Assembly (NCBI GenBank): GCA_008632985.1
Contig: QPGO01000049.1
Span: 248,001-312,000, forward strand
Reading direction: 5' to 3'
Source: Psammoneis japonica
Taxonomy: Eukaryota
Length of the DNA stretch: 64,000 bases
Part shown: positions 12,768 to 63,290 of the stretch, piece after piece
Layout: each line of letters starts with the position of its first letter
Position numbering within the stretch: position 1 is the first letter of the stretch
Made by a program: the position numbers and the translations under genes
Notes under the pieces: generated by a model
Database searches by the model: none
What the model was told of the DNA's origin: nothing
What the model saw: the letters and a program-made list of their open reading frames with translations, nothing else

Positions 12768-12812
12768 CCCCCCCCCCCCCCCCACACCCACACACACACA
12801 CACACACACACA
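12768..12812. repeat. Poly-C followed by (CA)n microsatellite
   Basis: Read directly. Confidence 0.85.
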
Positions 12813-41409: not shown

Positions 41410-41650
41410 CACTGGTGTCTGGTCAAAATCCAACTGGGGTTGTGGAGCACACAAAAATGGAGGATGGCCAAGAAGTGCAAGTGGCTCAGCCACTGGCTGA
41501 GTGGTCAAGTGGCGCCACCATTTCTGACTTCTTGTTTTGAGACACACCAGACTCTCCAGCAGCACAACAACAAACACACAACAAACTGTCCCAGCAATGG
41601 CAATCTTGTCAGAGCCTGCAGCGGTGCTGGACAACAAATGCTGTGGTGCT
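41410..41650 (+). pseudogene. Third, short copy of the TM9SF 3' end and downstream DNA
   Basis: LVSGQNPTGVVEHTKMEDGQEVQV versus LVSGQDQTKMEYVKMEDDQEIQV; the 3' flank also aligns with 38510-38650. Confidence 0.75.
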
Positions 41651-44389: not shown

Positions 44390-45870
44390 TTGTGGGTGGA
44401 GACACTGCAGAGCTGACAATTCCATGGAAATCTCAACCACTGTTGAAAGAAGCAATTGCCATTTTTGCCATCACCGCTGCTTCCAGCCAATGTTGTTTTT
44501 GTGGTCCTGATCTTCTGCCAGAACCTCTTCCACATCGGCCTGGTGAACCACCTTGCAATTTTGTGGTGAGAGATGGGATGATCATAGAAATGCTCGCACT
44601 CCTCTTCAATTCAATCATCCAAAACAATGTGAGTTTGCAGAAGGCTTTTGGATGTTGCCGATTCATTTGTGCACATCCGATGCAGCCGCACATCCCAAGC
44701 AACATCCCACAAGTGAACAATCAAACCAGATGCCCATCTCAGGCCCATGTTGCATTGCTCCAGACAGTCACAATGCTCCTGTTGAGCATGAGCCCACTCA
44801 ACAACCAGAAAGCCACAGGCAAAAAAACATTCTCCAACTGTCTGCTGTGCAAGAAAGATCTCTGTTGCAAGTTGGTGTTCTGACTGAGGTGTCAGTTGAG
44901 GGATCTTGTCATGCCATGATGCAAGCAGTTGAATGATGCCAAGCTTGATGTCAGGGTGAGTGTGGTGCTTTGTCAGCCACTCCTCCAGGCCTTCCAGTTT
45001 TGTCAACCACAGTTCTTGGGTGGCAAAAGACTTGCATCATAGAACATGACTCTCCTTGCATCTCAGACAAACTGGACTTTCTATTTTGTCCCATCTGTGA
45101 AGATTGTTCTTTGCAAGAACAAAACCGGTGAACCGCTTTGGTTGCCACAAGCAGCAGAAGGTGGGGCATCATTGCATTGCTTTTCCTGATGTGTTGTCCA
45201 GTTGATCTCAGCATGGGTTGGCTCTGCTTTGATTTTTTCTGTCCAGTGCTGAGAGGCGGAAGGTCCACAGATGTGATCTAGAAGTCATGGCTTGTCCCAC
45301 TGAGTCATTGGAGCTCCTTGCGGGGTCACTCCCAAAGCAAATGTTCCCATGTCAGGTGTGCTCAACAAAGCTTCTCAGCGTGTTTTTTCACTAACAAGTC
45401 CATTTCCATGTTCATCACTTCAAGACAGGTGAGTTGACTGAGATTTGCTTCCCGATTTTGGTGCCCTTTGATCTGTGCCAGTGAGACAATGATCAGAATC
45501 TCCTGAATCATGCGTGCTGATTGGACAAATTGGGTTGCAGTTGGACTGTCTGGTGTCATCACAGTTGTTGACAAAGCATGTGCTCAGCACAGAATTGCAG
45601 TCACATCCCAGGACAATTCCACCTCTTGTGATGTGCGCAGTGTCTTGCACAATTGTTGCAGCTTCTTCCAAAGAGTCCCACAAATGCCACCTGGCTCTCC
45701 CTGGTGTGCACTCTGGTCAATTTCTTGGCATGGTGTTTGATTTGCTTCTTGGCATCTGTGAGAGTGGCTCTCTGATGGGACAAACATCATTGCAGCTGTC
45801 ACCATCTTGTCCTCAAAGGAACCATCATCTGTGATGCTGACAGCCATGCTGTCTTGAATGCCCTTTGCCA
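44390..45870 (-). mobile_element. 3' fragment of an RNase H-containing diatom LINE (Ambal-like), degenerate
   Basis: AVSITDDGSF...DQSAHQGEPGGICG...GIVLGCDC RNase H-like; C-terminal AQQTVG...GFLVVEWAHAQQ...GLRWASGLIVHLWDVAWD. Confidence 0.7.
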
Positions 45871-45871
45871 G

Positions 45872-46300
45872 GGCCTTTGCAAACATGCAGGGTTATGCAG
45901 CATTTTTAACTTTTGCCACTCCAGGAAACAAGGCACAGCCAGACCCAAATGCCCAAGCATGAGTTCACTTCCTTCAACTTGCAGAACAGAACAAATTAAG
46001 AAAACAGGTTGAAATGGTGCACATTTCTGGGTTGGCCATTTTTGCAATGATGTTGTCCTGAGCAGTGAAGTGATTCTGATTCTCACTCAGAAAATTGAGA
46101 TCCACAAAATGCAAAATGGCAGCAACTGTTGCTGCTCTTTGATCTTGTTGCCACATCCATTGATGCGATTGTTGCAGTGTTGATGGTCTTCAATCTTTTG
46201 TGCTGTAAAATGCTGCTGCTTTCCTTGTCATGCATTGCAGTTCTTTTTCTTCTGGTGGTTCTGCCAGTGCAGCCTCGTGCAGATTCATTTCAAGAAGACA
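45872..46300 (+). pseudogene. Degenerate copy of TRM61 3' end, intergenic DNA and TM9SF 5' end
   Basis: ggaaacaaggcacagccagacccaaa and gcagttctttttcttctggtggtt shared with 36027-36460. Confidence 0.92.
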
Positions 46301-46589
46301 GTTCTGCATGTAGAAGACCCAGCACAGAAAGCCAAGACCCAAAGGCTGTCCAGCTCACATCAAGCCTTCAAGGTCCAAGCTCCCAACAGTTGTCACAACC
46401 CAAGTGAGGCAAGGCATTGCAACAGATGATTTTGTGCCAACCACTGCTGCTGAAGCTGATTGGATTGGCTTTGCATCAAGGTGCAAACCAGGCTGGGCTG
46501 TTTTGTGCCACCACTGGACCATGCCATTTTCCACCTCTTGGTGTTCATTGTGAAAGAGCACCAGCCAGATGATGCCCTTGTTGGCTCAG

Positions 46590-48200
46590 CTTTTGCTGAC
46601 ACACTTGGCAGGATCTTCTGCTGGTTGGGCAGCACCAGCATCAGATCTGTTGCTCATGCCATCTGACCAATTCATTTCATTGCAACACTTTTGCACTGAA
46701 ACATCCTTCTTGTGCTTTCTTTCTTTGAAAATTGCTTTGTGCTGATCAACAAACAGAATGACACAAAGGTCTTTTTTGGTGATCAACTTGTCCATCATGC
46801 CATTCTTTGCCACCATCTTTCTTGAAGCCTCTGGGTGCAAAATTCAGCATTTCCCTCCCTCTGCACTCTTTTTCTTTTTGGACTTGTCTTCATCAATGTG
46901 CCTTGTCTCTGCCACAGAAGATGCCAGCTGGAGACAGTTCTTGAGTCACTCCGGTGCCTTCTTGTCATTTGCAAAGCAACAGCGTGCCAAAATGTCACCC
47001 AGAAAGTTGAGTTTTTGCTCTGGAAGCTTCTGAGTGGCCCCAGTTGCACCAGCAAGCTCCACAATGTTTCAAGCATGAACATCAACAGAACTGGGTGCCA
47101 GAAGTTCTTGCCAAGTGCTTGTGATTTCCACGTGCATCAAGAGCAGTGCTGGGCATGAGCAGAGCTCATTTTGCTCTTTGACAACAACTTTGGATCTCTG
47201 CAAAAAAATTGGGTCATGTGAGCAAATGAAGCCTTGCCATGCAAGCCCAGCAGCTTCAATTGAAAATGGTGGAGACCATCTGTGATGTGGCCAGCTGACT
47301 TCAGGGCAGCTTCAATTTCTGTGTTTGCTTGTGAGGGCTGCTCCTTGTCACACTTTTTGGGCACCTCCCAGTCAAGGTGATCTGGGTTCTCTTTTGTGAG
47401 CTCACAGCAACCTTGCAAACTCTGGTGGTCCTTGAGGGGGATCTTGAATTTCTCTGGAAGGTTCTTGACACACTCAAGGGTGAACCTGCCATGGTTGTCA
47501 ATGGATTGAACCACAACCTTCTTGGCAGCTGGCAGAATCCCATGCCACCAAGATGGAAGAAGCAGGCACTTGTCAGTGACAGTCTCAGGCTTGGGTGCTT
47601 GTCCTGCCTCAGTGAGTGGATTTGTCTTTTTACACCACTCTGGAAAGGAAACCCTGGTGCTTGGACAAAGATTTGCTTTTTGGAACAAAGATTTCTAAGT
47701 CTCCTTGCTGGTGCCATGGCAACAACAGAGGCCTGCTGCTGGCACAAGACCTCGCTGATCATTGACGCACTTGGAGCACTTGACCAATCCTTCCTGAGAG
47801 AGGGTGTTGTTGCTCTTGGCAACAAACAAGCTGCACCCTTGCAAATTCAAGCTCTTTTGAACTTGTTGGTCATGTTGCCACTGCGCTGTGCACAGCATTT
47901 CACAATGTCCACCAAACCCATCAAGTGTTTCAAGAAACCACCGCTGTGGATTGTCACAAACAACTGGAAGACTTCTGTGTCCTTTGACAATGTTTTGGGC
48001 AATTGCATCCCATGCTTGCTTGGTCACAAAAGCACTTGGCATCATTGCAGTCATTGATCCTGGCTTTGCACTGTGTCTTGCAAGAAAATTGTCTGCAAAC
48101 CCCACCAATCATTGCTCACCAGCCAAGCACCATGCGGTTGGGCCCACACCACCACTGGCATTTCCTGCACAAACCATTGTGGCCATGCAAAAAGGGGCTC
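46590..48200 (-). mobile_element. Degenerate DDE (pogo/Tc5-like) transposase
   Basis: GSMTAMMPSAFVTKQAW...PQRWFLETLDGFGGH and FQKANLCPSTRVSFPEW, recognised from memory as DDE_1-like motifs; several frameshifts. Confidence 0.55.
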
Positions 48201-50824
48201 TTTTTGCCATGGCAGTTGAGACAGGGGAGATTGGAGTGGCTGCAGCAGCACCAAGTCTTGAAACAAAAGACTGTGCCCATGCCACAGAGCAGTTGGCTTG
48301 ATGACCAAATGTGAAGCCTCACATTCACTGCTTGGACACCTGGCCAAACAAAGAAGAATTTTGGAAGCAATTTTTTGGTCAGGATGTTGCATTTTGACTT
48401 GGCCTTTGGTGCGGGACCAACCAAATTGTTCACACACTGTGGGCCACTCATGTGTTGATTGTTGTCATGCAGTCTGTGATTTGAAGGATTGTGTGTGACA
48501 CAATGGCAAATTGGACAAGTCACATGCAGTTGATGCTCTTGTCTTTGGGAGACTTGGCAGGAAGAAGAGCACAAGCAAAGAAGTTGAAGATGTCAAGAAC
48601 AGCAAAAAATGGAAGAATGGCAACAAGCACATTCAAAGGTGGGCTTGTGACACATGCATCACTGCTGCAGGCACTGAGTCAAAGTCAGAGAAATTCCATC
48701 ATGTTGTCAAGCATTTTGGGAACATCGGTTCCAGAAGCACCCTTGTTGATGCTCTCTGCCTTGCTGGGACTTGCAAGCACAATGCAGGAATGAGAGAGCA
48801 TCTCCAAATCAATGGCATGCTGGCTGACAAGCATGCCAAGATTTTGCATTCCTTTTAAGGCACACCCACCTTTCTGAATCACAGTTGCCTTGGCTGCAAC
48901 AACAAGCTGGCAAAAAAGCTGGAGATCAACATCTGGTGAACAAGAATGTCACAGAGCTGGCACAAGAAAATGGAGAAAAAGCAACTTGAGCATTTGAGAG
49001 AGGAGCTCAAGTCAAGGAAGGTGCCAGACAACAGCACCCCCAAAAACATGTCATGAGACAGATGCATGTGCAACAACAAGTGTGGCACAAAACACCCATG
49101 TTAGACAGTGCCAACTTTGTTGAGAACTCACAGAAAAGAAAATCAAAGTCACAGCAACAGCCACCATCTGAGGAGCTGCGCACAAAAAATAAAACCTTTG
49201 AATTTGCAAGAGAAGGTGGCCTTGCCACAAAAACCACTGCCAGTGCCAACTGCACAGTGCCCCATTCCATGTTGCCTTCCAATTGCTGTCATTCCATTTT
49301 GGAACAGCTTGCCAACATTTTTGCCACCTTTCCAGATGCCGCCAAATCTGCAGCTGGATCTGAGCCAAAAATTCTGTTGTTTCTAAGCACCAGATTTTCA
49401 CCTTTCAAAAACAAACTTTCTGGGGCTGGCCACTCAAGGAAAAGTGCCACATGATGAGTGTTGTTCATCACCAAAGCAGCCTTCAAATGAAAATGCATCA
49501 TTGCAGTTGTGCTTCCATCCCACATTGCATCTGGAATTGGTGCCAAGACAGAAGATGGGAAACAGTGGGCAATGGCACTTGAACAAAACCAACCCTTGAA
49601 TCTTTTCATGTGCAATGGATTGATGTCCTCCATCTTCAATGCCACAAAAATGCAACAACAATTGAGCCACGCCCTCACTTCTGCCATTGCTGCACAAGTG
49701 CTGCACCCTTCTTCTCTCTTCCTTTCCCCAATTTCAGGAGCAATTCAAATGACACTGTTGGAGACATCATGGATCTGAAGCTGCAGTGGTGTCAGAAGAA
49801 TTTTGCTGCTGGGACTCCATCATTTGCTGTGCCAAAAGATGACAAGTCTGTGTCTCCACATTCTGTGCACTGTGAGACTGAGGGTGTCACAGTTTGTGTT
49901 GTGCAGTGGGAGCCAAACAGCATCAGCATTGAGTTGATGTGCATGGATTGTGGGGGCAGGCTTGTGTGCCAACAATTTAACATCAGAAGAGGCTGTTCAC
50001 TTGCTCCTGTTTTTGACATCAGAGGCACCACTGATTGGGCTTGCTCTGTGTGGTGCAAATGTGATGTGAGTGTGGATTGTTTTGCCTTGGCAATGCTGTG
50101 CAGCTCAAGCACTCTTTGCTGCTGAACCTGCAGACAGCCTGTCCAGTCAGTTGAAGGTGTGCCTCCACAAAAAAACAGCTTTCACATGACAAAGGCAACC
50201 ACATGCTGCACTGATCATGTGATTCAGCAACACAGAAATGGCCAGGCAACGTTGGTGTTCCTGCACCAAATGAGGGCTGCAGCCTGCAAGGACATGGAGA
50301 TGTCCTGTCATTCACAACCAATTGCAGAATCTAAGTCAACGCAGGCACTTTCCAAGTTTGAAGATTGGGTTGAACAACACATGGGCCAATGCCATCTCAG
50401 ATGAGATGTGTCACACATTCTCTTAGAGATGCAATTGGTTGTGAGAAGCACAAGTGATGCAAGTGACTGTGCCTTCATCAGTTGAACAAGAACTGCTCTA
50501 AAACTGAAGCAACTGGGCTGTTCATGGTGGGGGTTGTGACTGGTGAGATTGGCTCTGCTGTTTGTGTTCCATCCTTGGAAACCAAGGGCTGTGCCCACAC
50601 AGCAGAACAATTGGAAAAACAGCCAAATGTGCATCTGAAAGTTCATTTCTTGGATGCTTGATCAAATGACAAATTGTTCTAGAAGGAAATGTTTGACTGT
50701 GATGTGAGTTGTCATCTCAAACCATGGCACCAGATGAGCTGCATCACTTGGACATTGCAGAAGACACATGCTGAGACTTTGGAAGGCAGTTTCAGACTTG
50801 AAGCTTGCTGTGCATTGTGGCAAG

Positions 50825-50993
50825 TGTCAGACATCCGAGATGGGGAGTGCACTCCCTTGTGTCGGACAGACTGGCACAGACAGCATGGAGAGATCCGATG
50901 ATCTCTCCTTTGCTCACTTTCTTTCTCATCTAGTGCACGATTGTCATCTGTCCCAGACATCCGTTAGATTGTCCCGATGCCACTAGTCCGCAA
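50825..50993 (+). repeat. 5' LTR
   Basis: 161 of 169 positions identical to the 3' LTR by manual alignment. Confidence 0.95.
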
Positions 50994-51195
50994 GGTTGTG
51001 AGCAGCAGTGTGCTGTTCCTCTTCCTCTGTGCTCCTCCACTGCAACGCCTGTTGTGTGATTTGGCGACTTTTTCTTCGTTGAAATCGTCATCATTGTCAC
51101 AGCTGTTTTTTCACCTCTCGATTTGTGATCAAACGACCACCGTAGAACACATGCCAGAGCTCTACGTGGGAATTTGATTTTTTTCCCGCGCAACC

Positions 51196-54100
51196 ATGGT
51201 GAACAAAAATCAAAACGTCGTCGATTTGACCAAGATCAAGACGATGCAGGTTGAATTCAGCCCACACAATCGCGTGCCCGATGCCCACATTTTCCTGAGT
51301 GCTCTTTGTTTGGACGAGATCCCTGCTCCTGAAGATCTTTTGGATGAATTTGCCCCTCAAGGCCTCAAGAGCGACGCTGTTGCTGTCCTCCGACATGAGA
51401 TCGTTCAGAATCTCATCATCCCTGAAGCTCTCCAGACTGAGGATCTTGCATGAATTGGACCCATCATTGAGAAGGCTCCTCTCTTTGTGGCTGCTCCTCA
51501 AGGCCCCCCGGTTCGTCTGAACCTTGGCACTCTTCAGAAGACTGTGATCAAGGCAATTTCAGAGAATGACGATGCCATGCATCTGTGTGTTGGGACTCTG
51601 CATTTCCATTTCAGCCCTCGTTTTCGACATCATGATTGCTGGGATGATGTCTCCGATGGTCCGTGTCCGGATCCACCGACCACTTCGAGTTCTGCATCTG
51701 CACCAGTTGCTGCCACAGGTCCCACTCCCGAAGACTTTGCTGAGGCCCCAGCTTCTCACTCACCTGGTCCAAAACAGTTTGAGCAAGCTGTCACAAACGC
51801 GTTGAAGAACTCTGCTCCCAAGGTGTCGTCTCCTGCACTGTCCACCATGACCACTGCTGGCATGGCTTCTTCATCGACTGCTGCTGGTGCCACACACACC
51901 TTTAATCTGAAAGGACTTCCAAAGGATGTGCTGGCCCGCCATCAGTGCAAGGAAGCTGGGAAAGTGGCACTTGGCAAATCCCTGGTGCCCTGCAAGTCTG
52001 GAAACCTTCATTGCGAGGATGGTGCTGAGCGTCTCATCCTTGCTGATGGTTCACTCTTTGTTCATTGCACTGACTGGGACGCGAAATCATTCCTTCGCGA
52101 TCCTCTCACTTGTGATGACATCTCTCCTCAAGGAATCCGTGCATGGCACATTGCTGCAACCCAACAAGCCTCGGCTTGTGGTGCACACATGCATCCTCTG
52201 TGGTGTTTTATCAAGGATGGTGGAAATTGGGGTTTCACTTGTGGCAATGATCCCACCGATGATCCACCTCTCCGGATGACGGCAGCACTTGACCAAATGA
52301 AACTGACCATCTTCCAGTGCATTCAGAAAGTTGGAATTTTTCCGGCAGACTCCAAGCACCCTGACATCGTTCGCCAATGTCATGGTGATGGACATGCAGC
52401 TGTAAGATGATTCTCTTTGATGTCCTGCCGATTTGGACGAAGCGTCCATGTGAGTTGATCAAGAGCCACCCGCACCAAAACAACCTCATGGTCCTTGGCT
52501 GTTGTGCTCCATTCAGAGACTGCCTTCAGCTGCAAGCTGTCATCTCCAATGTTGATGCATCTCTTGATGACCCTGGTGAGCTTGACATTTTTCTCAGCAA
52601 TGCCCACTGTGGCGAGTGCCTTCACCGTAAAACAGTGGATGCCCAGGAAGACAAGACCCAACAACACAAGTTCACCCAGAAGAAGATTGTTGAAACTGTT
52701 GGTGCGATTCTCAAGGAACCGGGTGGTCCAGCTCTACTTGTCAAGGACCCTCCCAAATGTCCTCCACGTCGTCTTCACACTTCGCCTCCTCCTCCTCTTG
52801 CAGCTCCTGTCCGCGGTCTTGAATTGCTTCCCCAGGATGAAGTTTCTACTCCGCCTCCAGCGATTGAAGAGTCTCCCAAGGAATCTGCCTCTCCTCCTGC
52901 GGAAGAACCTACGGAAACTGTGGAATGCTTTGTAAATGAACTTGCTGCTGTGGATGTTCCTCCAGATGATGATGCACAAGCCCTCCATGGTGTCCACAAG
53001 GCCTGCATCCATGGGATCAAGTCCTCGCCTGCCACTGCACAGAACCGTCCATGTGTTGTTTGTGGCAATGACCACTTGTTCCACGAGTGTCCTGTGTTGA
53101 ACAATGCTGAGTGCCTGCACACCCATCTCATTTGGTTCTCCCAGTTTCTTCAACGTGACCAGCGTGCTCGTGATGCACTTCAGTCTGGCACGGCCAAGAA
53201 GGATTTTTCCTGGGGCCATTGTCATGTTCGGACAAACAATGCTGCCCATTCTCCTCCAATCCGAAAACTCCTGCAAGCGGGGTAACTGTGAAAGAGGGTC
53301 AAAATGACTTGTTGCCTTCCGCTGATCCTCCTCTTTCACCTGTCTCATTTGCTGCCCTTCTTTCGAGCTCGACGAAGGCTGGTGCTCCTGATCCCAAGAC
53401 GATTCCTGATGATGACCCTGGTGATCACAATCAGGGGAGGGAATTCGATCCTCCTACATTGGACACTGATGCTCCATTGTCCACTGATCAAGACCAAGCA
53501 TTTGAGTGTCTTGACATGACTGACACCCAGCATTTGTCGCCTCTCAGTGCCGTGCGCATCTCCCCAATTTTTTCTCCCCCGGAGTCACCTGTGACCTTTG
53601 CATCCTTGACCACCCCAGTCGTTCCCATCAATCATGTGCTTCGTGATTCAATGATGTGTCGTGCACAGATTGATGCTGGTGCTTGGGTGTCCTGTGCAGG
53701 GGACAAGAACCTCCTCCACGCACGTGCTCCTTTTGGACCGGATGACCCATGCCCTTTGAAGATGCTTCCGGCTGCTGAAGGCTCTGGTGCGGTTCCTCAT
53801 GGCTTTGGATGCCCACAGGTGCCTGCAGACAACCCCGAAGGCTTTCTTCTCGTACGCACTTTTTACCATCCCAGTCCACGATCCACTTTGATTGATGAAC
53901 GTGATTTTGCGCGGGCTTCTGGTTTCAAATCTCAGTCCATTTGATCCGAGCTCCTTGAGAAGACATGCGCCGATGGCACTTGCACTTACACTGCTTCCAC
54001 TGACACACAAGCAGCAGTTGTCCATGGCACACTTCGACATGGCAAGGCATTCACACAACCCCTGATTCCTCCGTCTCCATCTGGTGTCCCCTCGACACCG

Positions 54101-57100
54101 ACGACCCCTGACTTGTCCTTGGTTGACGACGTCAATGATGCATGTCAATGTGCAGCATTTTTTATCAACGTCCAACAAGGTCCATCTGATCCCTTGCTGA
54201 TGGATGCTGAGCTGTTTTCGGTGCAGTGTGACTCGGCTCCGTTGTCCACCCTGCTCCTGTCTGCTCTCTCAAGGTTGAGACTGAACGTCTTCTGTGGCAT
54301 CAACGCCTTGGACACCCCAGTGATCGCCACTTGTGCAATGCTCACAAGTGCATCAAGGGTGTCCCCAAGTTCCGTCATGCTGGTCCCGTCCTTGACATGT
54401 GCCCTGCGTGCATCCAAGCCAAGCAAGTCAAGACTCCTGCTGGACCGAACACGACTTGGAAGGCGACCCAACCATGCCAAGGTCTCACTGTCGATTTTGC
54501 TTTTGCTGGCCAGACTTCCAAGAATGAAGCCCGCAAGGTTGATCATCTTGGACACAATGGTGAAACATGTTGGATCACTGTCTGTGATCATCACACGCGG
54601 ATGCTCCATGGTGTAGCGAGGGTTTCAAAGGCCAGTCCTCTCAAGTGGCTTCGCCGATTCTTGGATCGACATTCACTGAATTGTCGTGACAAACATGCAC
54701 TTGTGGACCACAGTGGGGAATCATACAAAACCCCAAAGTTCGTGACCTCTTTGAACGAGAATTCCAGTGTGACATCTGTCCTTCTGGCGCTGGCGCATCC
54801 AACCAATGTGGGCCTGTTGAATGCTCACATTTGACTGTTGAGAACGCGATTCATGCGATTTTAATTGGCGCCAACCTCCCGATCCGATTCTGGCCCTGTG
54901 CATTTTATCACTGCCTCCGTGTCAAGAATGCCACTCCTGCAAAAGATCAAGATGCGGCACCTGTCACTCTTGCTGCCAGAAAGGTCAAAGATTTTACTGC
55001 TCTGAAGACTTTCGGATGTCGAGTGTGGTCCAAACGGTCCACTGCTCGTTCTGCTGCCTTCCGGGCCAATTCCAAGAAGGGTGTCTTCCTTGGTTACCTT
55101 CCCAACACCCTCAAGAATGTCATGTGGTGGGATCCTGAGACTGATGAAGTCAAGACAGCCAAGCATGTGCGCTACGATGAAGGTGTGAATGACCCACTTT
55201 TGGATCAACTTCCTCCCAATGCTGTCCATTTGCAGCATGTGGAAAATGGTCAGCCTTTTCCAGCTGAAACACAGGACACCACCATTCCCATGTTTGCGTC
55301 TTCGTTGAATCCGTTTGCTGCGACCATTGCATGCACCATGAAACGTCCTCCAAAGGACCCTGCTTGTGGTTTTGGATTTTCTCAGTGTGCGCTAATGGAC
55401 CGTGTCCATGTGTCGGAAATCAAGCAGCGCAGTCCTGCGGCTTCATTGTTTTCTTCCCTCCGTGCTGCTCGCAACAAGATTGTGGGTGCATGTGTTGTCT
55501 CTGTCAACAAGCGTGAAGTCTTTACTCCTTCGGATGCTGAAGAGGCCTCATATCAGGTCTTTCATGATAAAATTCCGACTTTCGAGATTGCTTTTGCACC
55601 GGAACGACGATTGGATTCTCGCACTCTTAACAAGGCATTTGAGGAAGCGGAGTTGTTTGAGCCGGACACTGTGGAGGACGACTCTCATGTTCCTGAACTT
55701 GCTTTGGAGGATGTGCGATCTGTTGTGGCTCTTCTCTGTCCCGATGATGATTTTTTGGATGAGGCCATTCCTGCAGATGCATTTTATGCACATCTCAATG
55801 CGATTAGCTCTCGCTCACTCACTCCGGAGGAAGCTGCTCTTGACCGTCTCACCCGTGCCAAGCTTCGTAAACTTGACACATGGCCTGAATGGGAAGAAGG
55901 CGAGCAGCGTCAACTGGACCAATTTCATGCCCTGGGTGTGTGTGGTCCTCCACAACCATGTCCCCCTGGCGCGAATGTCATGCGTCCGCATTGGGATTGC
56001 ATGGCAAAGCCGGATGGCCAACGTCGCTCCCGACAATGTGGTGATGGTTCCAAGTCGGCAATGCCGGCCTTGCATGAGTTGACTTCCACCTGTTCGTTGT
56101 GTGTGGAACGTTCCATCAAAAAGATGTTTTTCGCTCTCAGTGCGGCCATGTCGCATCTTGTCTTTGGCGGTGATGCACGGGATGCCTGCACTCATTCTCC
56201 TGGCCCATCCCAACTGGTTTTTGTTGCTGTTGATGATGCACATGCCGCCTGGTGTGAAAAACGATTTGGCAAGAAAGCACCCCGCCACTGTGTTCTCCCG
56301 CTCAAGTGTGCTCTTCAAGGCCATCCTGAAGCTGGTGTCCTCTGGGAGAAGCACATCAATTCGATTCTCATGGGTGCGAAACTTCTTTTCCGTAACACTG
56401 CTCATGATGAGTGCATCTGTTCCGGTGAATGTGATGGTGTCAAGGTCCTCCTCCTTCGTCAGGTCAATGATTTTGCTCTTGCTTGTCCATCTGAAAAGAT
56501 TGCAAAAGAGATCTACGACCACATTGGCAGGGCTCTCCAGATGGAGAATGAGGGTGCTCCTCCCTTCAAGCATTTGGGCTTGGTTGCTGAATTCAATGGC
56601 ATTGATGTCATTCAAAATGACGACTCAATCACTGTCAACGTTGCCAGCTACCTTGACCGTGTTTTCAAGACCCATGGTTGGGACACTCCCGCTGCACATG
56701 AGTCTGATTCTGATTTCAAGGCCACACCTGTTCCGGTTGATTGTGTTCCTGATCTGCACACTGCTGAAGGTCCTGAAGAGGGCACACCCGAGTGTGACAC
56801 TCTTGCTGAGTCCCAAGGATTCTCGCATCGTTCTGTCTTGGGTGAACTGGTCTTTGCCCACTCCTGTTGTCGTTTGGATGTTGGATGTCCTGTTGTCACC
56901 TTGTCCAAGTTTTCCAAGGCACCGGCTGAGCTCCACCATGATTCACTCAAGCGTGTGGCCAAGTGTTTGCGCCGTGCCAAACATTGGGGACTGACCTGCA
57001 AGAAGTCTAAACGCGATCCCGGCCTGCCTCCTCACGATTTTGAATGGCTTGAGGATGACCCATCTCTCCCGGATTTTCCTCGTGCTGTTGACCTTTTCCA

Positions 57101-57568
57101 ACTTCTTGGATTCATTGATGTGGCACATGGCAATGAACTGTGGCGTCGCCGTTCTGCTGCTGGCTGTGCGCATGTCCTTGCTGGTGCTGCGATTGACTGT
57201 CGATGCCGCACGCAAACGATCACCGCTGCTGGTTCCACAGAAGCTGAGTTCCTTGCGGCTGTAACTGCTGCAAAACAGACCCTGCACCTCGCATGGTTCT
57301 GGAAGAATTGGGTTTTCCCCAATGTGGCCCCACTCCCTTGCACATTGACGACTCCTCTGCCATCCAGATGATCAACAACAAGGTGCCTACGGAGCAATCT
57401 CGTCATGTTGACACTCAACATTTTGCTGTCCAAGACTGGCGTGACGTGGGCAAGATTGTCACTCAACATGTCCCGGGTGTCATTGACCCTGCTGATGCAC
57501 TGACCAAGGCCGTGGGTTGGATGCTCCACGCCCGCCATGCCCGCCGCTTGTTGGGACACTGCCGTTGA
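51196..57568 (+). pseudogene. gag-pol of the copia element, broken by frameshifts and stops
   Basis: CVVCGNDHLFHEC knuckle; QIDAGA protease; LWHQRLGHP; QGLTVDF integrase; ALQGHPEAG and RQVNDF RT; STEAEFLAA and PADALTK RNase H. Confidence 0.93.
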
Positions 57569-57709
57569 TTGTTGTCGGGTTTGTTGTGGATTGAGTCTTG
57601 GGTGTGTCTCTGTTTTATTTGTTTTGTTCTTTGCCATTCTGGTCCTCTCTTTTCACTCGGATCGTCTCTTTCTTTCTTGTTGAGCATTGCATTGCTCATC
57701 AGGGGAGGG

Positions 57710-57878
57710 TGTCAGACATCCGAGATGGGGAGCACACTCCCTTGTGTCGGACAGACTAGCACAGACAGCATGGAGAGATCCGATGATCTCTCCTTTGCTC
57801 ACTTTCTTTCTCATCTAGTGCACGATTGTCATCTGTCCCAGATGTCCGTTAGATTGTCCCGATGCCACCAGTCTGTAA
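57710..57878 (+). repeat. 3' LTR
   Basis: Follows the polypurine tract and is followed by the target-site duplication. Confidence 0.95.
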
Positions 57879-58007
57879 GCAAGGAGCTCAACAAAGCAAG
57901 AGCAGTTGGGGCATTGCCTCTGACAAGCTGAGCAGGAAGCAGCACAGCACCAAAGAGATCCAACAGTTCAAGGAGAGCAAGCTGTGGAAGAATCATCATG
58001 CTCCTGA

Positions 58008-59655
58008 ACAAAGAAGGGCATCACAACAACTGGCTCCTCAATGACACCTGCCATTGGCAGGCACAGGTCATGGTCCCCACAACATGCTTGCAAAGTGCCA
58101 TGCCAACAGGCGCTGCAGCCCTGCTTGGCTTTGTTGATGTTGTGCCCAAGAGACCCTGCATTTCAACCATGTCAACACTCACAGCATGGATTGTCATGCC
58201 AGTGCAAATGGAGGACACAGCATTGTCAGTTTTGCAGTGAAACCTCCAAGTGTCCAGCACTGTTTTGCAGAAGGAAAGTTTGATTTGGGCAGCATCTCCT
58301 TGGACAGCCTTGCCAAGCACAAGAGTGCAACTCCTGTCTGCAGCTTTGGTGGTTGTGTTTTTTAAAATGGTGGGTCTTTTGAGTCTGGCAAAGGCCAGCC
58401 AGGGCCAATTGTCATTTTCTGCTGGATGCATTTATCCTGTCAGGCTTTCTGAATGTGAGTGCATCACAGTGCAGTTGAGCAGAACTTTCATGAAAGAGGA
58501 GTGGTGTCTGCCTTGCATCTGTCAATGTGGGGCTTGCCTTTCATCACCTTTGCCTTCTTTCCAGCAAAGCAGCCAATCCAGCAAAGCAGCCAACAGGAAT
58601 CATTGTGGCTCTCAGAGCCATTGCATGGAAATTGTGTGGAACTGCAGCACCAAGAACAATTGTCATCAACCTGTCCATCCATCTGCACCTGAATGTCAAC
58701 TTCTTGGGAAATCAATTGAAACGTTGTCTGATCAAAGGCGTTGCTCTTTGCCATGTAAATCAAGGTGCCTTTGATCAAATGGCATTTCAACTGAGTTCCC
58801 ACAAAGTCATTAGCTCTGATCACTCTCTCATGTGACACTGTGTGCTTTTCCACATGATTTTGCATTTTCTCTTGTGTGAAATGTTGGTTGTGGCTGATGT
58901 GACATTTTTGAATGATTTCTGTTGCAAGTTCTTTTCTGGATGGCATCATCAACAGGTGCTGTTCTGCTGACTGCCCTGCCATTTTTGGCTGTGCTGCTCT
59001 TGCTGGTTTCTGTAGACTTGACCCACTTGGGTGGCTTTGTTGGATGCAAATGGCAATTGTTGGCAATGTGTTAAACCAAAACAAGCTGTCTAGAACAAGC
59101 AAACAGTCTCGGTTGTGCATTGTGGTTGTCTTGCTGCCATTCAATGTTGTGCCTTGCTTTGGCTGTTGCAATGATGTCTTGTCAAGCACAGCTGCTGCTG
59201 GTCTTCCTGTTGTGGTGGGGTCTTTGTGCTCCTGATTGGAGGTGCCTTCACCTTTGGGTGCATGTGTGTCAAGTTGTTTTTCATCCTGACAGATGTCTGG
59301 ATGGGACAGCATTGCTCAGTGTTTGGATTTCTGTTTTTTTTTTGTTGTCTGCATTTTGACATCATTGACTTGTGCTGGAGTGTCAATCCTTTTCAACTGC
59401 ACTTGCCACTGAGTGTGCAGATGAGCACTGCAATTGGTGGTGGCAGTTTTTTGACACTGGTGCAGCATCAATCTGGCTCTGGAGGTGATGAGTTTTCTGA
59501 CTCCTGTCTTTTGTGCTTTGGATCTGTGGCATGGGGTTTGTTCTTGGAGTTGTCTTTTTGGCAAAATTGTCCCATCTGCTGGCATCTGGTCAAGATCAAA
59601 CTGGGGTTGTGAAATGTGTCAAAATGGAGGATGGCCCAGAAATGCAAGGGTTGTC
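58008..59655 (+). pseudogene. Degenerate copy of the TM9SF middle and 3' end
   Basis: 58008-58319 aligns with about 36705-37007, 58320-58571 with 37411-37668, then an insertion 58572-58923, then 58924-59655 with 37666-38505 (MLLIGGAFTFGCMCVKLFF versus MLLIGGAFTFGCIYVELFF). Confidence 0.93.
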
Positions 59656-60516
59656 ATTGTCTCAATTTTGCATCATTTCAAATTGAAAAATGGCTGCCAG
59701 CAATTGCAACATTGTTGGAACCCACAGTGGTGGACATGAGTGCGTTTTGTGCCAAAGTTGTTGCAAGCACTCCTCTGCATTGTGCTTCTACATTGTGCAC
59801 AAGTGATCCATGGGATGGGATGGCAGTGCCAACTTGGGGTCATTCTGCAATCAAAGGTTGCCTGGCCTCATTCAATGAAAAGCCATGATGTTTTTTTTTC
59901 TCCAAGCTTCTGCTTCCCAGCCTGCAGTGACTCACACCACTTTGACCACACCATGTTGTCCAGGTCCCAGCCAGTGTCAGGCAGACACTTTTTGTGGCAA
60001 ATGCTTGCCAGCAGCCCCCACGTGTGTTTCTGCTCACCTTCTCGTGCTGATGTGCCCTTCTCAGACGGCACTGTGCTGGGTCTCCCAAGACCATTCTGCC
60101 CATTTCAACCAATGGCACACCCTTGTTTCAGCATGTTGAGCAATGTTTCTAAGTAGAAAATGACTGGTGTTGACTTCTTGTGCATGGCTCACATGCTCGT
60201 TGATCTTTTTTGACTCAAGAAATTTCCCACATGGACTCCAGTGCAAATTCCACACACGTCAGCAACAACCACCCAACAAATGCTGTGTCGACACTGTCAA
60301 CACTCTGAAGTGCTCACACCCATGCCCACTGGTTCTCAATGACCTTCTTTGTCTCCATCGGCCAATCAAGTGCTCCACTCTACTTGGCGAAAGCATCTCC
60401 TCTGTTGTGGCACTGATGAGCATTGATGTGAGTCTTCCTTTGGCACCAAGCAATGATCATCCTTTTGTTGCACATGTTGGCATTTCTGCACAAGATCTGG
60501 CATGATTTCTACACAA

Positions 60517-61214
60517 GACAAATGTTTTTTCCCATGACTGACACGGTTCATCTTCATGGCTTCTTGTTTCATGCCTGCAAGCCCTGTGCTGCCCAGCTTC
60601 TGCATGCTGGCTAATCAAGCTTGCCACTTTGAGTGGCGGTCTTGCTGTTCTTGCCATGGTTCCTCAAGGTGTGCAAATGAGACACCTCATGATGCCAGTT
60701 GGCATCTTTCAATCAAGCAAATTCCAGGGTCCCTTTTTGCTTCCTTTGTGGCTCCTGTTGAATTTTTCTCCAAATGCAACTGTCCTCTGTGGTTGTGGTG
60801 TAACTGACATGTGCATCACCAGCAAGACTGCAGTGAACTCCAAGTGTTGTTCTCTCTGGGTTTCACATGAGACAAATGTTTTTTCCAATGACCCAACAAG
60901 GTCCATCTTCACTGCTTCTTGTTTCACACCTGCAAGTCCTGTGCCACCTCACTTCTGTCTTCTGGCCAACCAAGCTCACCACTTTGAGTGGTGATCTCAC
61001 TGTTCTTGCTGTGGTTCCTCAAGGTGTGCAAATGAGATGCCTCATGATGCCAGTTGGTGCCTGTTGCTCTCAAGCAAATTCCAGGGTCCCTTTTGCTTCC
61101 TTTGTGGCTCCTGTTGATTTTTTTTTCAAATGCAACTGTCCTCTGCAGTTGTGGTGCAACCAACGTGTGCATCACCAGCAAGACTGCAGCAAACTCCAAG
61201 TGTTGCTCTCTCTG
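60517..61214 (+). repeat. Tandem duplication, period about 354 bp
   Basis: 60517-60858 aligns with 60871-61214. Confidence 0.9.
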
Positions 61215-61396
61215 TTTCAACCATTTCCATTGGGCATTGCCTCTGGGAGATGCCACACTTCAGGTTGATTGCATGAGCTTCTGCCGCACTCCTTGATCAG
61301 TGTGCTGGAACTGTGGGTCAGCCAGCACCAGTGTTGCTGGGCAAAGGTGCAACAGCACTTTAAATCATGTTTGTTTGTTTTTTGTCTGTGCACAGG

Positions 61397-61592
61397 AGGC
61401 AGAGAGCATTGCAAGTGCCAGCTGCTGGAGTTGAGTTGCCAGTGCAGCCTGGGAGGAGGATGGTGCTGCAGTGCCAGTCACTGGCATTTTCTGTTTGCGC
61501 ACAGGCAGAGAGCATTGCAAGTGCCAGCTGCTGGAGTTGAGTCACCAGTGCAGCCTGGGAGGAGGATGGTGCTGCAGCGCCAGTCACTGGCA
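61397..61592 (+). repeat. Two 90-bp direct repeats, period 106 bp
   Basis: 61397-61486 versus 61503-61592; differences are TG/CA and TG/CG. Confidence 0.9.
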
Positions 61593-61599
61593 GCAACAA

Positions 61600-62990
61600 G
61601 GACAAAACAAAGGAGTGTTTTAGCTGGAGAGCACAGTGAGGGCTCTTTTCCAAGCATTTGTCAAGTAAAATTTGCTGATTGCGCAGCTGGTTTGCCCCAT
61701 TTAGTTGACAGGCAAGCTGGGGCAATCTCTCCAGTGCTTTGAATTGCAGCACTGCTTTGCAAACTTCCTTTGCCTGGTGTTTTTTTTCTCCTTGGCAGGC
61801 TCAGACTTCAACAGCAGAGGCACACTGGTGTCACTTGTGGCGCTGACCCACCAGGTGGCTGTCTGGCTGCTCCCCACCCCCAGCCAGAAATCCATCAAAA
61901 GACTGCAAGGGCAGTGGTCTTGTTGTCCCATCAGAACAAAAAAAGGACTCCAGAGCTGGAATGTGCAGTGGCAGTGCATCAATGACAAAACACCATCTCT
62001 CTCAAGACTGCTTTCAATGCAACCTTCCTCTTTCCACAAACCAACAAACATCGCAGGTGGGAGTGAGCACATGCAATGGGATGGACAGCTGGATGGATCT
62101 GGCACAACAACCTGATTTTGGCAAATTGAGAATCCCAACATCTGGGTTGCTTTGGGTGGGTTGGACAGCCACCACCTCCTGGTTGCTTGAGGCATCACAT
62201 GTTGCACACACAAAGCTGGGTGTTGTCATGCCACATGATGTGGCACTTTGAAGTTGCACCCCATGCAATGCTCAGAACAACAAAGAAGTGCATCTCATGC
62301 CATGGAACTTGATTGTTTGTACATCAATGGCCACAAAGTTGATCAAGATGAGAGTTTTGTCATCACACCACAACAAGACAGTGGAAGATTTTGATGGTTG
62401 TGCTGGATTTCTTGGCACTGTTGACTGTCATGCCACATTCAGACACGCCAACAAACAGTGTGTTTGCTGACTTCCACAGGGCTCTCACAACTGCTGCGTG
62501 AACAAGTCCAAAATCACTGGGTTTGTTTCTGCTGTGCAGCAGATGCAATCATCATCAGCATCTGAGGAGTGCACGTGCACCGGCATGAACAGAGTCATTT
62601 TTTTCTTCCAGCTTCCCATGGCAGATGCACAAAATGATGTTTTGATTTCCGGTGTCAACAATGCATCTTGCACGATGTGGCAAGAGGAGCACTTGAATGT
62701 TTTTTTTCTGAAGAGAGTGGAGGAGCGCCAACTTGTGTGTCAAATGCAGCTGTTGGATGCTGTGAACAATTGTCGGCACCCACGACTCTCTCACATCGAA
62801 TGGCAGTTGTGTCCACAGATGACGCCATGCATGGATGAGATCAGCTGCACTTGCTTCTCTCATGCCCCCATCTCCCCTTGTTTGGGAAGTTTTTGCTTCC
62901 TCATCAAAGAGGCAGTCTCAGCCACAACACCTGCCTTGTTCTTTTCCACCCTGCGGTGTCAGCGCAGCTTGGCTGTGTGATGTGGCACAT
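61600..62990 (-). mobile_element. Possible degenerate LINE 3' fragment
   Basis: AADLIHAWRHLWTQLPFDVRESWV resembles the RNase H region of diatom LINEs; otherwise eroded. Confidence 0.35.
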
Positions 62991-63037
62991 GATGTGCTTT
63001 GTCACGGGACAGTGCATGAAACCCAACAGTGCAACAA

Positions 63038-63290
63038 GGCCTGTTCCAGCTCCAGGTGCTCCTCGAAGGTTCGATTCCCATCTTTTGTGCATTTGGCGCA
63101 ATTGACTTTTTCCAAATCCGTTTTTTGCCAAATCGAGGGGCAAGTGCACTCTTTGCATGTGTTTTCGGGTGCACACTCACCTCTTGATTTTTGAAACGAT
63201 CAAAATTGAAGGAGTCAATTGAAGCCAAACTGCGCAGAAAATCGGCCTCTCTCGCGATGAAAAGCGGATCACCTGGAGCTGGAACAGGCC
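63038..63290. mobile_element. 253-bp MITE-like element
   Basis: Perfect 21-bp terminal inverted repeats GGCCTGTTCCAGCTCCAGGTG (63038-63058) and its reverse complement (63270-63290); no clear target-site duplication. Confidence 0.7.

What the first reader, a model, noticed from the sequence alone, without database searches (positions are those of the whole stretch)
50825..57878. Every difference between the two LTRs is a transition at a TA/TG/CA/CG step
LTRs are identical at insertion. The 8 mismatches are 50848-49 TG vs CA, 50873 TG vs TA, 50958-59 CA vs TG, 50984 TA vs CA, 50989 CG vs TG and 50991 CA vs TA. No transversions or indels. Three sites keep TA in one LTR only, and the retained TA alternates between the two LTRs. 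Two sites were resolved in opposite ways (ancestor TA or CG). The mutation therefore happened in situ after integration and outpaced background mutation.
Basis: seen in the sequence. Interest (0 to 1): 0.88.

Follow-up and report, generated by a model that had tools for sequence, protein, structure and literature searches.

The report
Hypermutation erasing TA and CG steps
The two end-repeats of a young copia-type jumping gene, in what looks like a diatom genome, differ only by changes between TA or CG and TG/CA, and the non-gene DNA around it has lost nearly all its TA and CG, much like a TA-targeted hypermutation reported so far in one unrelated alga.

Summary
The LTRs (50825-50993 and 57710-57878, 169 bp, with TSD GCAAG) differ at 8 of 169 positions. 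All 8 are transitions at pyrimidine-purine steps, with no indels. Chance is about 1e-3 to 1e-5.

The window explains the pattern. Non-genic DNA has TpA observed/expected of 0.01-0.1 and CpG of 0.05-0.25, with TpG/CpA near 1.8-2.0. Genes keep TpA at 0.4-0.7 and CpG near 1, and the boundaries are sharp to 100-200 bp.

Comparing genes with their decayed duplicates gives the direction. TA became TG or CA at 83 of 96 sites, and 4 stayed TA. CG became TG or CA at 99 of 117. Reversals to TA were 4 of 390. Outgroup proteins back this direction.

Contigs from a public run reproduce the sequence, so it is not an assembly error.

Best reading: silenced DNA undergoes TpA-specific A:T>G:C hypermutation plus CpG decay. 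The first is the kind shown in Bigelowiella natans in a 2026 preprint. The host here is diatom-like.

Direction at the three TA-polymorphic LTR sites is probable but unproven, because no genome or family copies were available.

The parts
50820..50824 (+). Target-site duplication GCAAG, left copy
   Evidence: identical 5-mer on both sides of the element
50825..50993 (+). 5' LTR (169 bp, starts with TG)
   Evidence: 161 of 169 positions identical to the 3' LTR. It holds TG at 50848-49, G at 50873, CA at 50958-59, TA at 50984-85, CG at 50989-90 and CA at 50991-92.
50994..57709 (+). Internal region of a Ty1/copia-type element, with its reading frame broken into several ORFs
   Evidence: one search gives the ORFs. 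One search gives gag_pre-integrs (54232-54834, E 2.4e-9), SH3_retrovirus (E 2.4e-10) and RVT_2 (E 9.1e-6, 25.9 bits, below the 31.6 cut-off) in 54690-57371. One search gives TA 38 (o/e 0.10), CG 261 (0.59), TG 742 and CA 546.
54690..57371 (+). Integrase/RT ORF (893 aa) that is poor in Tyr and rich in Cys
   Evidence: Tyr is 0.8% against 2.3-4.0% in 4 homologs. Of 24 Tyr positions in the nearest homolog P0241, the window has Tyr at 2, Cys at 10, His at 6 and another residue at 6.
57700..57709 (+). Polypurine tract next to the 3' LTR
   Evidence: read directly from the sequence (CAGGGGAGGG)
57710..57878 (+). 3' LTR (169 bp)
   Evidence: X1 record 4 (57837-58721) matches with 0 other letters.
57879..57883 (+). 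Target-site duplication GCAAG, right copy
39100..64000 (.). Compartment depleted of TA and CG, in which the element sits
   Evidence: per kb there are 1-11 TA, and 2-14 CG outside the multi-copy elements. TG/CA o/e is 1.5-2.0. The onset lies between about 39100 and 39500, some 600-1000 bp past the EMP70 stop codon.
58010..59480 (+). Decayed duplicate of the EMP70 gene, used to set the direction of change
   Evidence: of 40 gene TA, 23 became TG, 15 CA and 1 was kept. Of 50 gene CG, 27 became CA, 20 TG and 0 were kept.
45856..46297 (+). Decayed duplicate of 36012-36454 (GCD14 3' end and EMP70 upstream region), part of the same segmental duplication
   Evidence: of 21 TA, 9 became TG, 6 CA and 2 were kept. 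Of 13 CG, 6 became TG, 4 CA and 0 were kept.
36328..38508 (+). Intact EMP70/TM9SF gene, the reference copy
   Evidence: EMP70, E 5e-126; homologs. One search gives TA o/e 0.62 and CG 0.80.
1700..5600 (.). Second depleted compartment. It includes 3237-4340, a decayed copy of 20316-21491.
   Evidence: of 35 TA in the 20-kb copy, 16 became CA, 14 TG and 1 was kept. Of 54 CG, 23 became TG, 19 CA and 8 were kept.
9800..13800 (.). Third depleted compartment
   Evidence: TA 12 (o/e 0.04) and CG 42 (0.22) in 10001-13800. The onset is about 240 bp after the M14 ORF stop.

Best explanation
The element is a young, dead Ty1/copia-type LTR retrotransposon in a diatom-like nuclear genome. It lies inside a chromatin compartment covering everything outside gene units, where two context-specific transition processes run far faster than background. 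(1) TpA changes to TpG or CpA. This is an A:T>G:C change at the self-complementary TA step. It is most simply explained by enzymatic deamination of adenine to inosine in DNA at T-A, as proposed for Bigelowiella natans. (2) CpG changes to TpG or CpA. This is the classical signature of deamination of 5-methylcytosine in methylated, silenced DNA. Both processes end in TG/CA, which is why TG/CA is about twice the expected frequency and TA and CG are nearly gone. The 8 LTR differences record these processes since integration. About 5 hits fell on ancestral CG and about 3 on TA, split 4:4 between the LTRs, with no background change yet. What is shown: the pattern, its compartment limits, its direction in host-derived duplicates, and that the sequence is real. 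What is inferred: the chemistry (A deamination, 5mC), the link to silencing or defence, and TA as the ancestral state at the three TA-polymorphic LTR sites.
For: LTR pair: 8 of 8 differences are YR-step transitions and 0 of 89 non-YR positions differ.
Compartments: across the 64 one-kb windows, TA and CG o/e correlate (Spearman 0.87). Each correlates negatively with TG/CA (-0.85 and -0.94). The edges are sharp to 100-200 bp near ORF ends.
Direction: pooled over three comparisons of a retained copy against a decayed copy, 83 of 96 TA became TG (46) or CA (37) and 4 were kept. 99 of 117 CG became TG (49) or CA (50) and 8 were kept. TG was kept at 183 of 218 and CA at 143 of 172. TG/CA became TA at 4 of 390.
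Outgroup: in single-difference non-synonymous EMP70 codons, 40 homologs favour the gene state 13:4 (4 ties) for TA>TG/CA and 18:4 (3 ties) for CG>TG/CA. In the copia ORF, homolog Tyr (TAY) aligns to window Cys/His (TGY/CAY) at 16 of 24 positions. The reverse case occurs at 2.
Two processes rather than one: multi-copy elements and the MYND ORF are TA-poor (o/e 0.10-0.36) but keep CG (0.59-0.79).
Not an artefact: X1 contigs of depth 61-72 match 8 unique stretches between 46000 and 63022 with 0-1 other letters each.
Precedent: in mutation-accumulation lines of B. natans, 230 of 231 mutations in silent viral inserts are A>G or T>C. The paper states that all of these GC-biased mutations fall on TpA. 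TpA-poor, CpA+TpG-rich clusters there are enriched in RT and DDE domains (bioRxiv 10.64898/2026.01.13.699255; Results and Discussion read).
Against: The direction at the three TA/non-TA LTR sites is not measured. Flux balance uses junk TA:(TG+CA) = 80:5499 and copia = 38:1288. It gives only about 2:1 for loss over gain, or about 4.6:1 using the 2 shared LTR TAs per 30 TG+CA.
The family comparison is mixed. At 23 internal places 90% or more of family depth differs from this copy. Taking the family letter as ancestral gives 3 CG losses, 1 TA loss, 2 TG/CA doubles, 3 reversals (2 CG gains, 1 TA gain), 6 other transitions, 4 single transversions and one CG-versus-TT pair at 57529-30.
The EMP70 outgroup test is noisy. 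Over all 113 non-synonymous codons the homologs favour the gene 66, the decayed copy 25, and neither 22.
The source role of 20316-21491 is assumed, not tested against an outgroup.
Most TA depletion of the copia predates this insertion: internal TA o/e is 0.10, yet only about 30% of LTR TA/CG sites have been hit. It is therefore a lineage property and not all in situ.
B. natans shows no raised C>T, so the CpG half has no counterpart there.
X1 may be the sample the assembly was made from.
No methylation, modified-base or enzyme data exist, and only 64 kb was examined.
Confidence: 0.7

Rival explanations
1. Cytosine deamination alone explains the LTR differences. The ancestral LTR had CG at the two TG/CA sites and at 50989, and CA/TG at the other three. 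All 8 changes are then C>T or G>A from 5mC at CG plus non-CG sites (CAG/CTG, CAA), or from a RIP-like CpA>TpA process. TA would be gained, not kept.
For: All 8 differences can be written as C>T or G>A. Two of the three TA sites sit in C[T/C]AG or CT[G/A]G, a CWG context. Flux balance leaves roughly a 20-35% chance per site of a TA gain. One family-majority comparison shows a TA gain in this copy at 54615.
Against: A process that makes TA cannot be dominant where TA o/e is 0.01-0.1. In the directed comparisons, TG/CA became TA at only 4 of 390 sites, against 83 of 96 for TA to TG/CA. Three gains among about 60 CA/TG site-copies would need a CpA-specific rate well above background. Background left 0 changes at 89 non-YR positions. 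Tyr>Cys/His at 16 of 24 conserved Tyr positions shows TA loss in this very element.
Confidence: 0.12
2. One mechanism acts on both self-complementary YR steps. An example would be an oxidase or deaminase system that recognises a 5-methylpyrimidine followed by a purine (5mC-G and T-A). TA loss and CG loss would then be two faces of one enzyme system.
For: TA and CG depletion share the same compartments and edges (Spearman 0.87). Loss is similar in the LTR pair (about 3 of 10 TA site-copies and 5 of 18 CG site-copies) and in old copies (4 of 96 and 8 of 117 kept). Both resolve evenly to TG and CA.
Against: The two are uncoupled in multi-copy elements and in the MYND ORF, where TA o/e is 0.10-0.36 and CG is 0.59-0.79. 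B. natans mutates TpA without a C>T excess. Sharing a silenced compartment would by itself produce the correlation.
Confidence: 0.1
3. A genome-wide mutation bias against TA and CG operates everywhere, and selection preserves TA and CG in genes. There is no targeting of silent DNA.
For: Depletion covers all long non-genic DNA seen, not only repeats. Genic TA o/e is itself lowish at 0.40-0.63.
Against: Genic CG o/e is 0.80-1.20, including synonymous positions. That is incompatible with CG loss at ten or more times background acting in genes. Undepleted DNA extends 250-1000 bp beyond the ORFs and then stops within 100-200 bp, which looks like a domain edge rather than codon-level selection.
Confidence: 0.05
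4. Sequencing or assembly artefact. Modified bases in heterochromatin are misread as transitions.
For: Platform-specific errors at modified motifs are known in general (recalled, not from a call). The library type of X1 is not on record, and X1 may be the data the assembly came from.
Against: Contigs of even depth 61-72 reproduce eight unique stretches with 0-1 other letters each, including copy-specific LTR letters. An artefact would not turn conserved Tyr codons into Cys/His codons across a multi-copy family. It would also not leave TG/CA differing between near-identical repeats in a stable consensus.
Confidence: 0.03

Closest known systems
TpA-specific hypermutation of integrated viral DNA in Bigelowiella natans (Mettrop et al., bioRxiv 10.64898/2026.01.13.699255; abstract, Results and Discussion read)
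   Same: TA changes to TG or CA, depending on the strand. The effect is confined to silent or foreign-type DNA. The long-term footprint is TpA-poor, CpA+TpG-rich clusters that carry reverse-transcriptase ORFs. The process runs orders of magnitude above background.
   Different: The host here is diatom-like (Stramenopila), not a chlorarachniophyte. Depletion is near saturation (TA o/e 0.01-0.1) and covers more than half of this window. In B. natans there are 124 clusters in about 95 Mb, with a cut-off of Rho 0.43 or less. Here CpG decay goes with it, whereas B. natans shows no C>T excess. The targets here are LTR elements, pseudogene duplicates and all intergenic junk. Nothing here is measured as de novo mutation.
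5-methylcytosine-driven CpG decay in methylated transposons (vertebrates, plants, diatom TE methylation)
   Same: CG changes to TG and CA evenly (49:50). Decay is restricted to non-genic or repeat DNA, and genes keep CpG o/e near 1.
   Different: It does not explain the loss of TA. Methylation itself has not been measured here.
Fungal repeat-induced point mutation (RIP)
   Same: Transition-only degradation of repeats, read off as dinucleotide bias. LTR and duplicate comparisons are the standard way to see it.
   Different: RIP changes CpA to TpA and so raises TpA, whereas here TpA is erased. RIP mutates both copies of a duplication, whereas here the genic copy is spared. The host is not a fungus.
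Very-short-patch repair bias in E. coli (CTAG depletion with CCAG/CTGG excess; recalled, not from a call)
   Same: There is a net TA>CA/TG drift at a T:G-mismatch-prone step. Two LTR sites are CTAG against CCAG/CTGG.
   Different: That is a weak genome-wide repair bias in a bacterium. It is not a compartment-specific process that reaches saturation.

Membership tests
Ty1/copia LTR retrotransposon | Two direct LTRs flanked by a short target-site duplication | tested here: met
   169-bp LTRs at 95.3% identity, with a 5-bp TSD GCAAG
Ty1/copia LTR retrotransposon | Integrase-related domains upstream of a copia-type RT (RVT_2) | tested here: inconclusive
   gag_pre-integrs and SH3_retrovirus pass their cut-offs and lie upstream. 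RVT_2 scores 25.9 bits, below its 31.6 cut-off. The nearest homologs carry PF07727.
Ty1/copia LTR retrotransposon | Primer-binding site and polypurine tract | tested here: inconclusive
   A purine run abuts the 3' LTR. The PBS was not compared with any tRNA.
B. natans-type TpA hypermutation | Mutations are A:T>G:C at TpA, giving TpG or CpA | tested here: met
   83 of 96 TA became TG/CA in directed duplicate comparisons. Outgroup support is 13:4. Tyr>Cys/His at 16 of 24 positions.
B. natans-type TpA hypermutation | Confined to silent, foreign or TE-derived regions, with the standard genome spared | tested here: met
   Genic TA o/e is 0.40-0.63 against 0.02-0.05 in junk, with sharp edges. Transcriptional silence itself was not tested.
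B. natans-type TpA hypermutation | Observed as de novo mutation at about 1000 times the background rate | not testable with these tools
   No lines or resequencing data. The LTR pair gives only 8 hits at hypermutable steps against 0 elsewhere.
B. natans-type TpA hypermutation | No accompanying excess of C>T | tested here: not met
   99 of 117 CG became TG/CA in the same copies
B. natans-type TpA hypermutation | ADAT2/TadA-like candidate deaminase in the genome | not testable with these tools
   No genome is held. None of the 21 ORFs scanned in the window matched a deaminase family.
Fungal RIP | C>T at CpA that raises TpA and lowers CpA/TpG | tested here: not met
   TpA o/e is 0.01-0.1 and CpA/TpG is 1.5-2.0 in the affected DNA
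Fungal RIP | Both copies of a duplication are mutated | tested here: not met
   The EMP70 gene keeps 92 TA and 97 CG, while its duplicate kept 1 of 40 TA and 0 of 50 CG
5mC-driven CpG decay | CG>TG and CG>CA in equal measure, limited to the methylated compartment | tested here: met
   49 TG against 50 CA. Genic CpG o/e is 0.80-1.20 against 0.21-0.23 in junk.
5mC-driven CpG decay | Cytosine methylation present on the affected DNA | not testable with these tools
   No methylome data are available

The most novel reading that the evidence does not exclude
Diatoms, or at least this lineage, run a chromatin-targeted DNA editor that erases every TpA outside gene units. It is coupled to, or mechanistically the same as, the system that erases CpG. 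On this reading a single 'self-complementary YR-step eraser' defines the silent compartment. It forces transposon lineages to purge TA (conserved Tyr becoming Cys/His) and makes TGA the only stop codon left in junk DNA. This would make TpA editing an ancient genome defence of the SAR supergroup (Stramenopila, Alveolata, Rhizaria), not a chlorarachniophyte oddity. It would also point to a natural double-stranded-DNA A>G editor with TA specificity.
Probability: 0.12. Interest if true: 0.92.

Novelty: new member of a known kind. Interest (0 to 1): 0.78.

Why it matters
TpA-specific A:T>G:C hypermutation of silent DNA has one report, a 2026 preprint on a chlorarachniophyte. No other report turned up in six full-text searches.

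Finding its footprint at saturation in a diatom-like genome suggests the process is widespread in the SAR supergroup. It can also shape more than half of a genomic region. Here it acts on LTR retrotransposons and decayed gene duplicates, and it sits beside CpG decay.

There are practical consequences. LTR-divergence dating fails here: 4.7% divergence coexists with zero background change. TAA and TAG vanish, so junk DNA is full of long spurious ORFs. Homology searches on such transposons lose sensitivity; the Pol ORF found only 4 relatives.

If an enzyme is responsible, it is a natural DNA adenine editor with TA context. That would interest both genome-defence biology and base-editing work.

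Tried and rejected
- Whole-genome LTR census: no genome is held for this window.
- Family copies from public collections: the Pol protein and a 27-letter LTR pattern found nothing usable. In metagenome contigs, 20 pattern matches included no relative by tblastn. Viral contigs gave nothing.
- The family-majority letters listed cover only 23 internal places and no LTR position. They give a mixed picture. 270 further rows were not shown.
- No RNA holder was listed for the element, so nothing can be said on expression.
- Earlier notes of this scan: none by place, words or sequence.
- RNA-level (sense-strand) editing: the copia sense strand has TG 742 against CA 546, a ratio of 1.36. Host genes range from 1.08 to 1.45. 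Tyr goes to both Cys (10) and His (6). There is no strand signal, so this was not pursued.
- Outcome by strand in the directed pairs: TA gave TG 46 and CA 37; CG gave TG 49 and CA 50. No asymmetry.
- Flanking context: surviving TAs in depleted DNA are poor in ATAT (1 of 182), ATAC/GTAT (4) and GTAC (3). They are rich in CTAA, GTAA and TTAA. This may reflect enzyme context or the sources of new TAs, and it is unresolved.
- Chance, and RIP, were considered and rejected (see the rival explanations and membership tests).
- One paper search failed on a syntax error.
Full report
OBSERVATION. The direct repeats 50825-50993 and 57710-57878 are 169 bp each and align without gaps. These are 50848-49 (TG/CA), 50873 (TG/TA), 50958-59 (CA/TG), 50984 (TA/CA), 50989 (CG/TG) and 50991 (CA/TA). 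All 8 are transitions, and all lie in a pyrimidine-purine (YR) step. TA is present only in the 5' LTR at 50984, and only in the 3' LTR at 57758 and 57876. GCAAG flanks both ends as a 5-bp target-site duplication. A purine run abuts the 3' LTR.

THE ELEMENT. The ORFs between the LTRs match gag_pre-integrs and SH3_retrovirus above their Pfam cut-offs. They match RVT_2 below its cut-off, at 25.9 bits against 31.6. The domain order fits a Ty1/copia-type element. The coding region is split into at least six ORFs, so this copy is dead.

CHANCE. 80 of the 169 LTR positions lie in YR steps. Having 8 of 80 changed against 0 of 89 gives Fisher p=0.002. Suppose a random substitution is a transition with probability 0.5-0.8. 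Then six independent events (counting each TG/CA pair once) all being YR-step transitions has probability 1.8e-4 to 3e-3. Eight events have 1e-5 to 4e-4. One logical point: any single transition at a YR step links {TG, CA} with {TA, CG}.

THE WINDOW EXPLAINS IT. Over the whole window TpA is at 0.24 of expectation, CpG at 0.58, and CpA/TpG at about 1.5. In 1-kb windows the picture is bimodal.
- Gene-bearing windows hold 22-50 TA and 41-83 CG per kb (TA o/e 0.3-0.7, CG 0.6-1.26).
- Long non-genic stretches (about 1700-5600, 9800-13800, 25-26 kb, parts of 30-32 kb, and everything from about 39.1 kb to the end) hold 1-11 TA per kb. They hold 2-14 CG per kb outside the multi-copy elements, which keep 29-48. 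TG/CA o/e there is 1.5-2.0.

TA and CG o/e correlate across the 64 windows (Spearman 0.87). Each correlates negatively with TG/CA (-0.85 and -0.94). The edges are sharp. Counts fall to near zero within 100-200 bp, about 240 bp after the M14 ORF stop. They recover within the 250 bp upstream of the M14 ORF start. The drop comes about 600 bp beyond the Rad21 ORF and 600-1000 bp after the EMP70 stop.

DIRECTION. The window holds duplicates in which one copy lies in normal DNA and the other in depleted DNA.
- The intact EMP70 gene, with part of its upstream region, has a decayed duplicate at 45856-46297 plus 58010-59480. That duplicate is interrupted by 11.7 kb, which includes the copia.
- 20316-21491 has a decayed copy at 3237-4340.

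Pooled over these three comparisons, 96 source TA gave 46 TG, 37 CA, 4 TA and 9 other. 117 source CG gave 49 TG, 50 CA, 8 CG and 10 other. TG was kept at 183 of 218 and CA at 143 of 172, the two best-kept dinucleotides; the others were kept at 50-82%. TG/CA became TA at 4 of 390 sites and became CG at 4 of 390.

The EMP70 direction was checked against 40 homologs. In codons with one difference that changes the residue, homologs favour the gene state 13:4 (4 ties) for TA>TG/CA. They favour it 18:4 (3 ties) for CG>TG/CA. Over all 113 non-synonymous codons the count is gene 66, decayed copy 25, neither 22. So the test is noisy, and the two copies may have diverged as paralogs for a while. For the 20-kb/3-kb pair the source role is assumed from composition and was not tested against an outgroup.

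THE COPIA ITSELF. Its Pol ORF has 0.8% Tyr and 4.4% Cys. Its four database relatives have 2.3-4.0% Tyr and 1.4-2.7% Cys. At 24 Tyr positions of the nearest relative (P0241, 42% identity) the window has Tyr at 2, Cys at 10, His at 6 and another residue at 6. The reverse case (Cys/His in the relative, Tyr here) occurs twice. TAY>TGY/CAY is exactly TA>TG/CA. Arg to Cys/Trp/His/Gln shows no such excess (4 against 7 reverse), which fits the element's CG o/e of 0.59.

The element's interior has the TA density of the surrounding junk (3-10 per kb) but about ten times its CG density (31-44 against 3-9 per kb). Only about 30% of inferred ancestral TA/CG sites in the LTRs were hit since insertion. Most of the TA loss therefore predates this insertion and belongs to the family lineage.

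IS THE SEQUENCE REAL? One public run (X1, coded) holds 64% of the sampled words. Its contigs, at depth 61-72, match eight unique stretches between 46000 and 63022 with 0-1 other letters each. Two of them cross from unique flank into an LTR. These reproduce 50848-49 and also 57843-44, 57869, 57874 and 57876. The interior of the element has depth 825-1750, about 12-26 copies. The bins holding the LTRs reach 4507 and 6373. Across the families laid, 261 of 303 variant places are transitions. X1 may be the sample the assembly came from and its library type is not on record, so this is not fully independent. Even so, a base-calling artefact is unlikely.

WHAT STAYS OPEN AT THE LTR. If junk DNA is near equilibrium, TA:(TG+CA) = 80:5499. 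The per-site TA-loss rate is then at least about 69 times the gain rate. The copia's ratio of 38:1288 gives a loss:gain flux of only about 2:1. The 2 shared LTR TAs per 30 TG+CA give about 4.6:1. Each of the three TA/non-TA sites is thus more likely a loss than a gain, and zero background changes push the odds higher. A C>T gain at one of them is not excluded.

The family-majority letters visible touch no LTR position. At 23 internal places, taking the family letter as ancestral gives 3 CG losses, 1 TA loss, 2 TG/CA doubles and 3 reversals. It also gives 6 other transitions, 4 single transversions and one CG-versus-TT pair at 57529-30. That does not help my reading. It probably reflects subfamily structure.

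The two TG/CA 'doubles' have two possible origins. Both LTRs may have been hit at one ancestral CG or TA. Alternatively, a background change may have created a short-lived TA or CG that was then resolved the other way. Such doubles are common in all pairs. Two examples are 10 dinucleotides in the 60506-61219 tandem pair, and 1 of the 2 differing sites in the 61397-61592 repeat.

ONE PROCESS OR TWO? Shared compartments and similar loss fit a single system. But multi-copy elements and a MYND-finger ORF are TA-poor while keeping CG: copia 0.10/0.59, RVT_1 ORFs 0.26-0.36/0.74-0.78, and the MYND ORF 0.12/0.79. B. natans mutates TpA without a C>T excess. I therefore favour two processes aimed at the same silent chromatin.

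HOST. TRM61/GCD14 finds only diatoms among its named best hits, at 46-60% identity. The named taxa are Nitzschia, Cylindrotheca, Bacillariaceae, Chaetoceros, Cyclotella, Skeletonema and Thalassiosira. The top hit, unnamed, is at 63%. The named EMP70 hits are also diatoms. Genes are long, uninterrupted ORFs. The host is a diatom or a close relative, and its proteins are absent from the database searched.

KNOWN OR NEW? Six full-text searches found one relevant paper, the 2026 B. natans preprint. I read its abstract, Results and Discussion; its supplements were not seen. It reports the following:
- Two silent viral inserts mutate at about 6e-7 per site per generation.
- 230 of their 231 mutations are A>G or T>C.
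- It states that all of these GC-biased mutations fall on TpA.
- TpA-poor, CpA+TpG-rich clusters are enriched for RT and DDE domains.
- It proposes an ADAT2-like DNA adenine deaminase.

No report for diatoms was found in those searches. The CpG half of the pattern is the classical footprint of methylated DNA. RIP is excluded because it creates TpA and hits both copies of a duplication.

MECHANISM I COMMIT TO (confidence 0.7). Silent, probably CpG-methylated chromatin outside gene units is exposed to two processes. One is a TA-specific A>I (read as G) DNA deamination. The other is 5mC deamination. The LTR pair is a short-exposure record of both. The footprint, its limits and its direction in host-derived DNA are shown. 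The chemistry, the enzymes and the defence role are inferred.

Noticed in passing
window 13838-20172, minus strand: Two long ORFs (1284 aa with a weak RVT_1 match, and 727 aa) have a very pyrimidine-rich sense strand (A 0.14, C 0.40, G 0.17, T 0.29). This gives GC skew of about +0.4 and AT skew of about +0.3 on the plus strand. Transitions cannot create such a purine/pyrimidine asymmetry, so it is intrinsic to this retroelement and unexplained.
   Followed up: partly
window 40001-50800 and 50000-58500: TAA and TAG have almost vanished from the depleted DNA (TAA 16, TAG 14, TGA 278 in 10.8 kb). Long spurious ORFs therefore pile up in all frames: 35 stop-to-stop ORFs of 100 aa or more overlap 50000-58500. 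Gene finders would over-call here.
   Followed up: partly
window 22515-23621, with repeats 21864-22182 and 25676-26005: A MYND zinc-finger ORF is TA-poor (8 TA, o/e 0.12) but keeps CG (0.79), like the transposons. It lies between two direct repeats of 74% identity spaced 3.8 kb apart. It may be a mobile or foreign element. The B. natans preprint also found a zinc-finger motif enriched among TpA-poor genes.
   Followed up: no
window 45856-46297 and 58010-59480, against 36012-38242: The segment from the GCD14 3' end through EMP70 has been duplicated about 10-20 kb downstream. The copy is split by 11.7 kb of inserted DNA that includes the copia. Only the downstream copy has decayed.
   Followed up: yes
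window 61397-61592: This is a tandem repeat of period 106 with 1.8 copies. Its two 90-nt copies differ at 3 positions, all at YR steps: one TG/CA double and one TG/CG.
   Followed up: partly
window 62828-63428, with a joint from 63290 to 57713: This is the repeat with the highest depth in run X1 (9001, against about 66 for unique DNA). One contig joins 63290 to the first bases of the LTR, so elsewhere in the genome this repeat lies next to an LTR of the same family.
   Followed up: no
window 1600-1800, 5500-5900, 9700-9900 and 39000-39600: The edges between normal and TA/CG-free DNA are sharp to 100-200 bp. They sit 250-1000 bp outside the ORFs, as if they marked the limits of transcription units or chromatin domains.
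   Followed up: partly
window 1691-2025 against 12789-13116 (inverted), 2512-2704 against 13318-13506, and 2797-3060 against 13620-13895: Old repeat fragments of 71-77% identity are shared by two depleted compartments. Their differences include many TG/CA doubles and about as many transversions as transitions.
   Followed up: no
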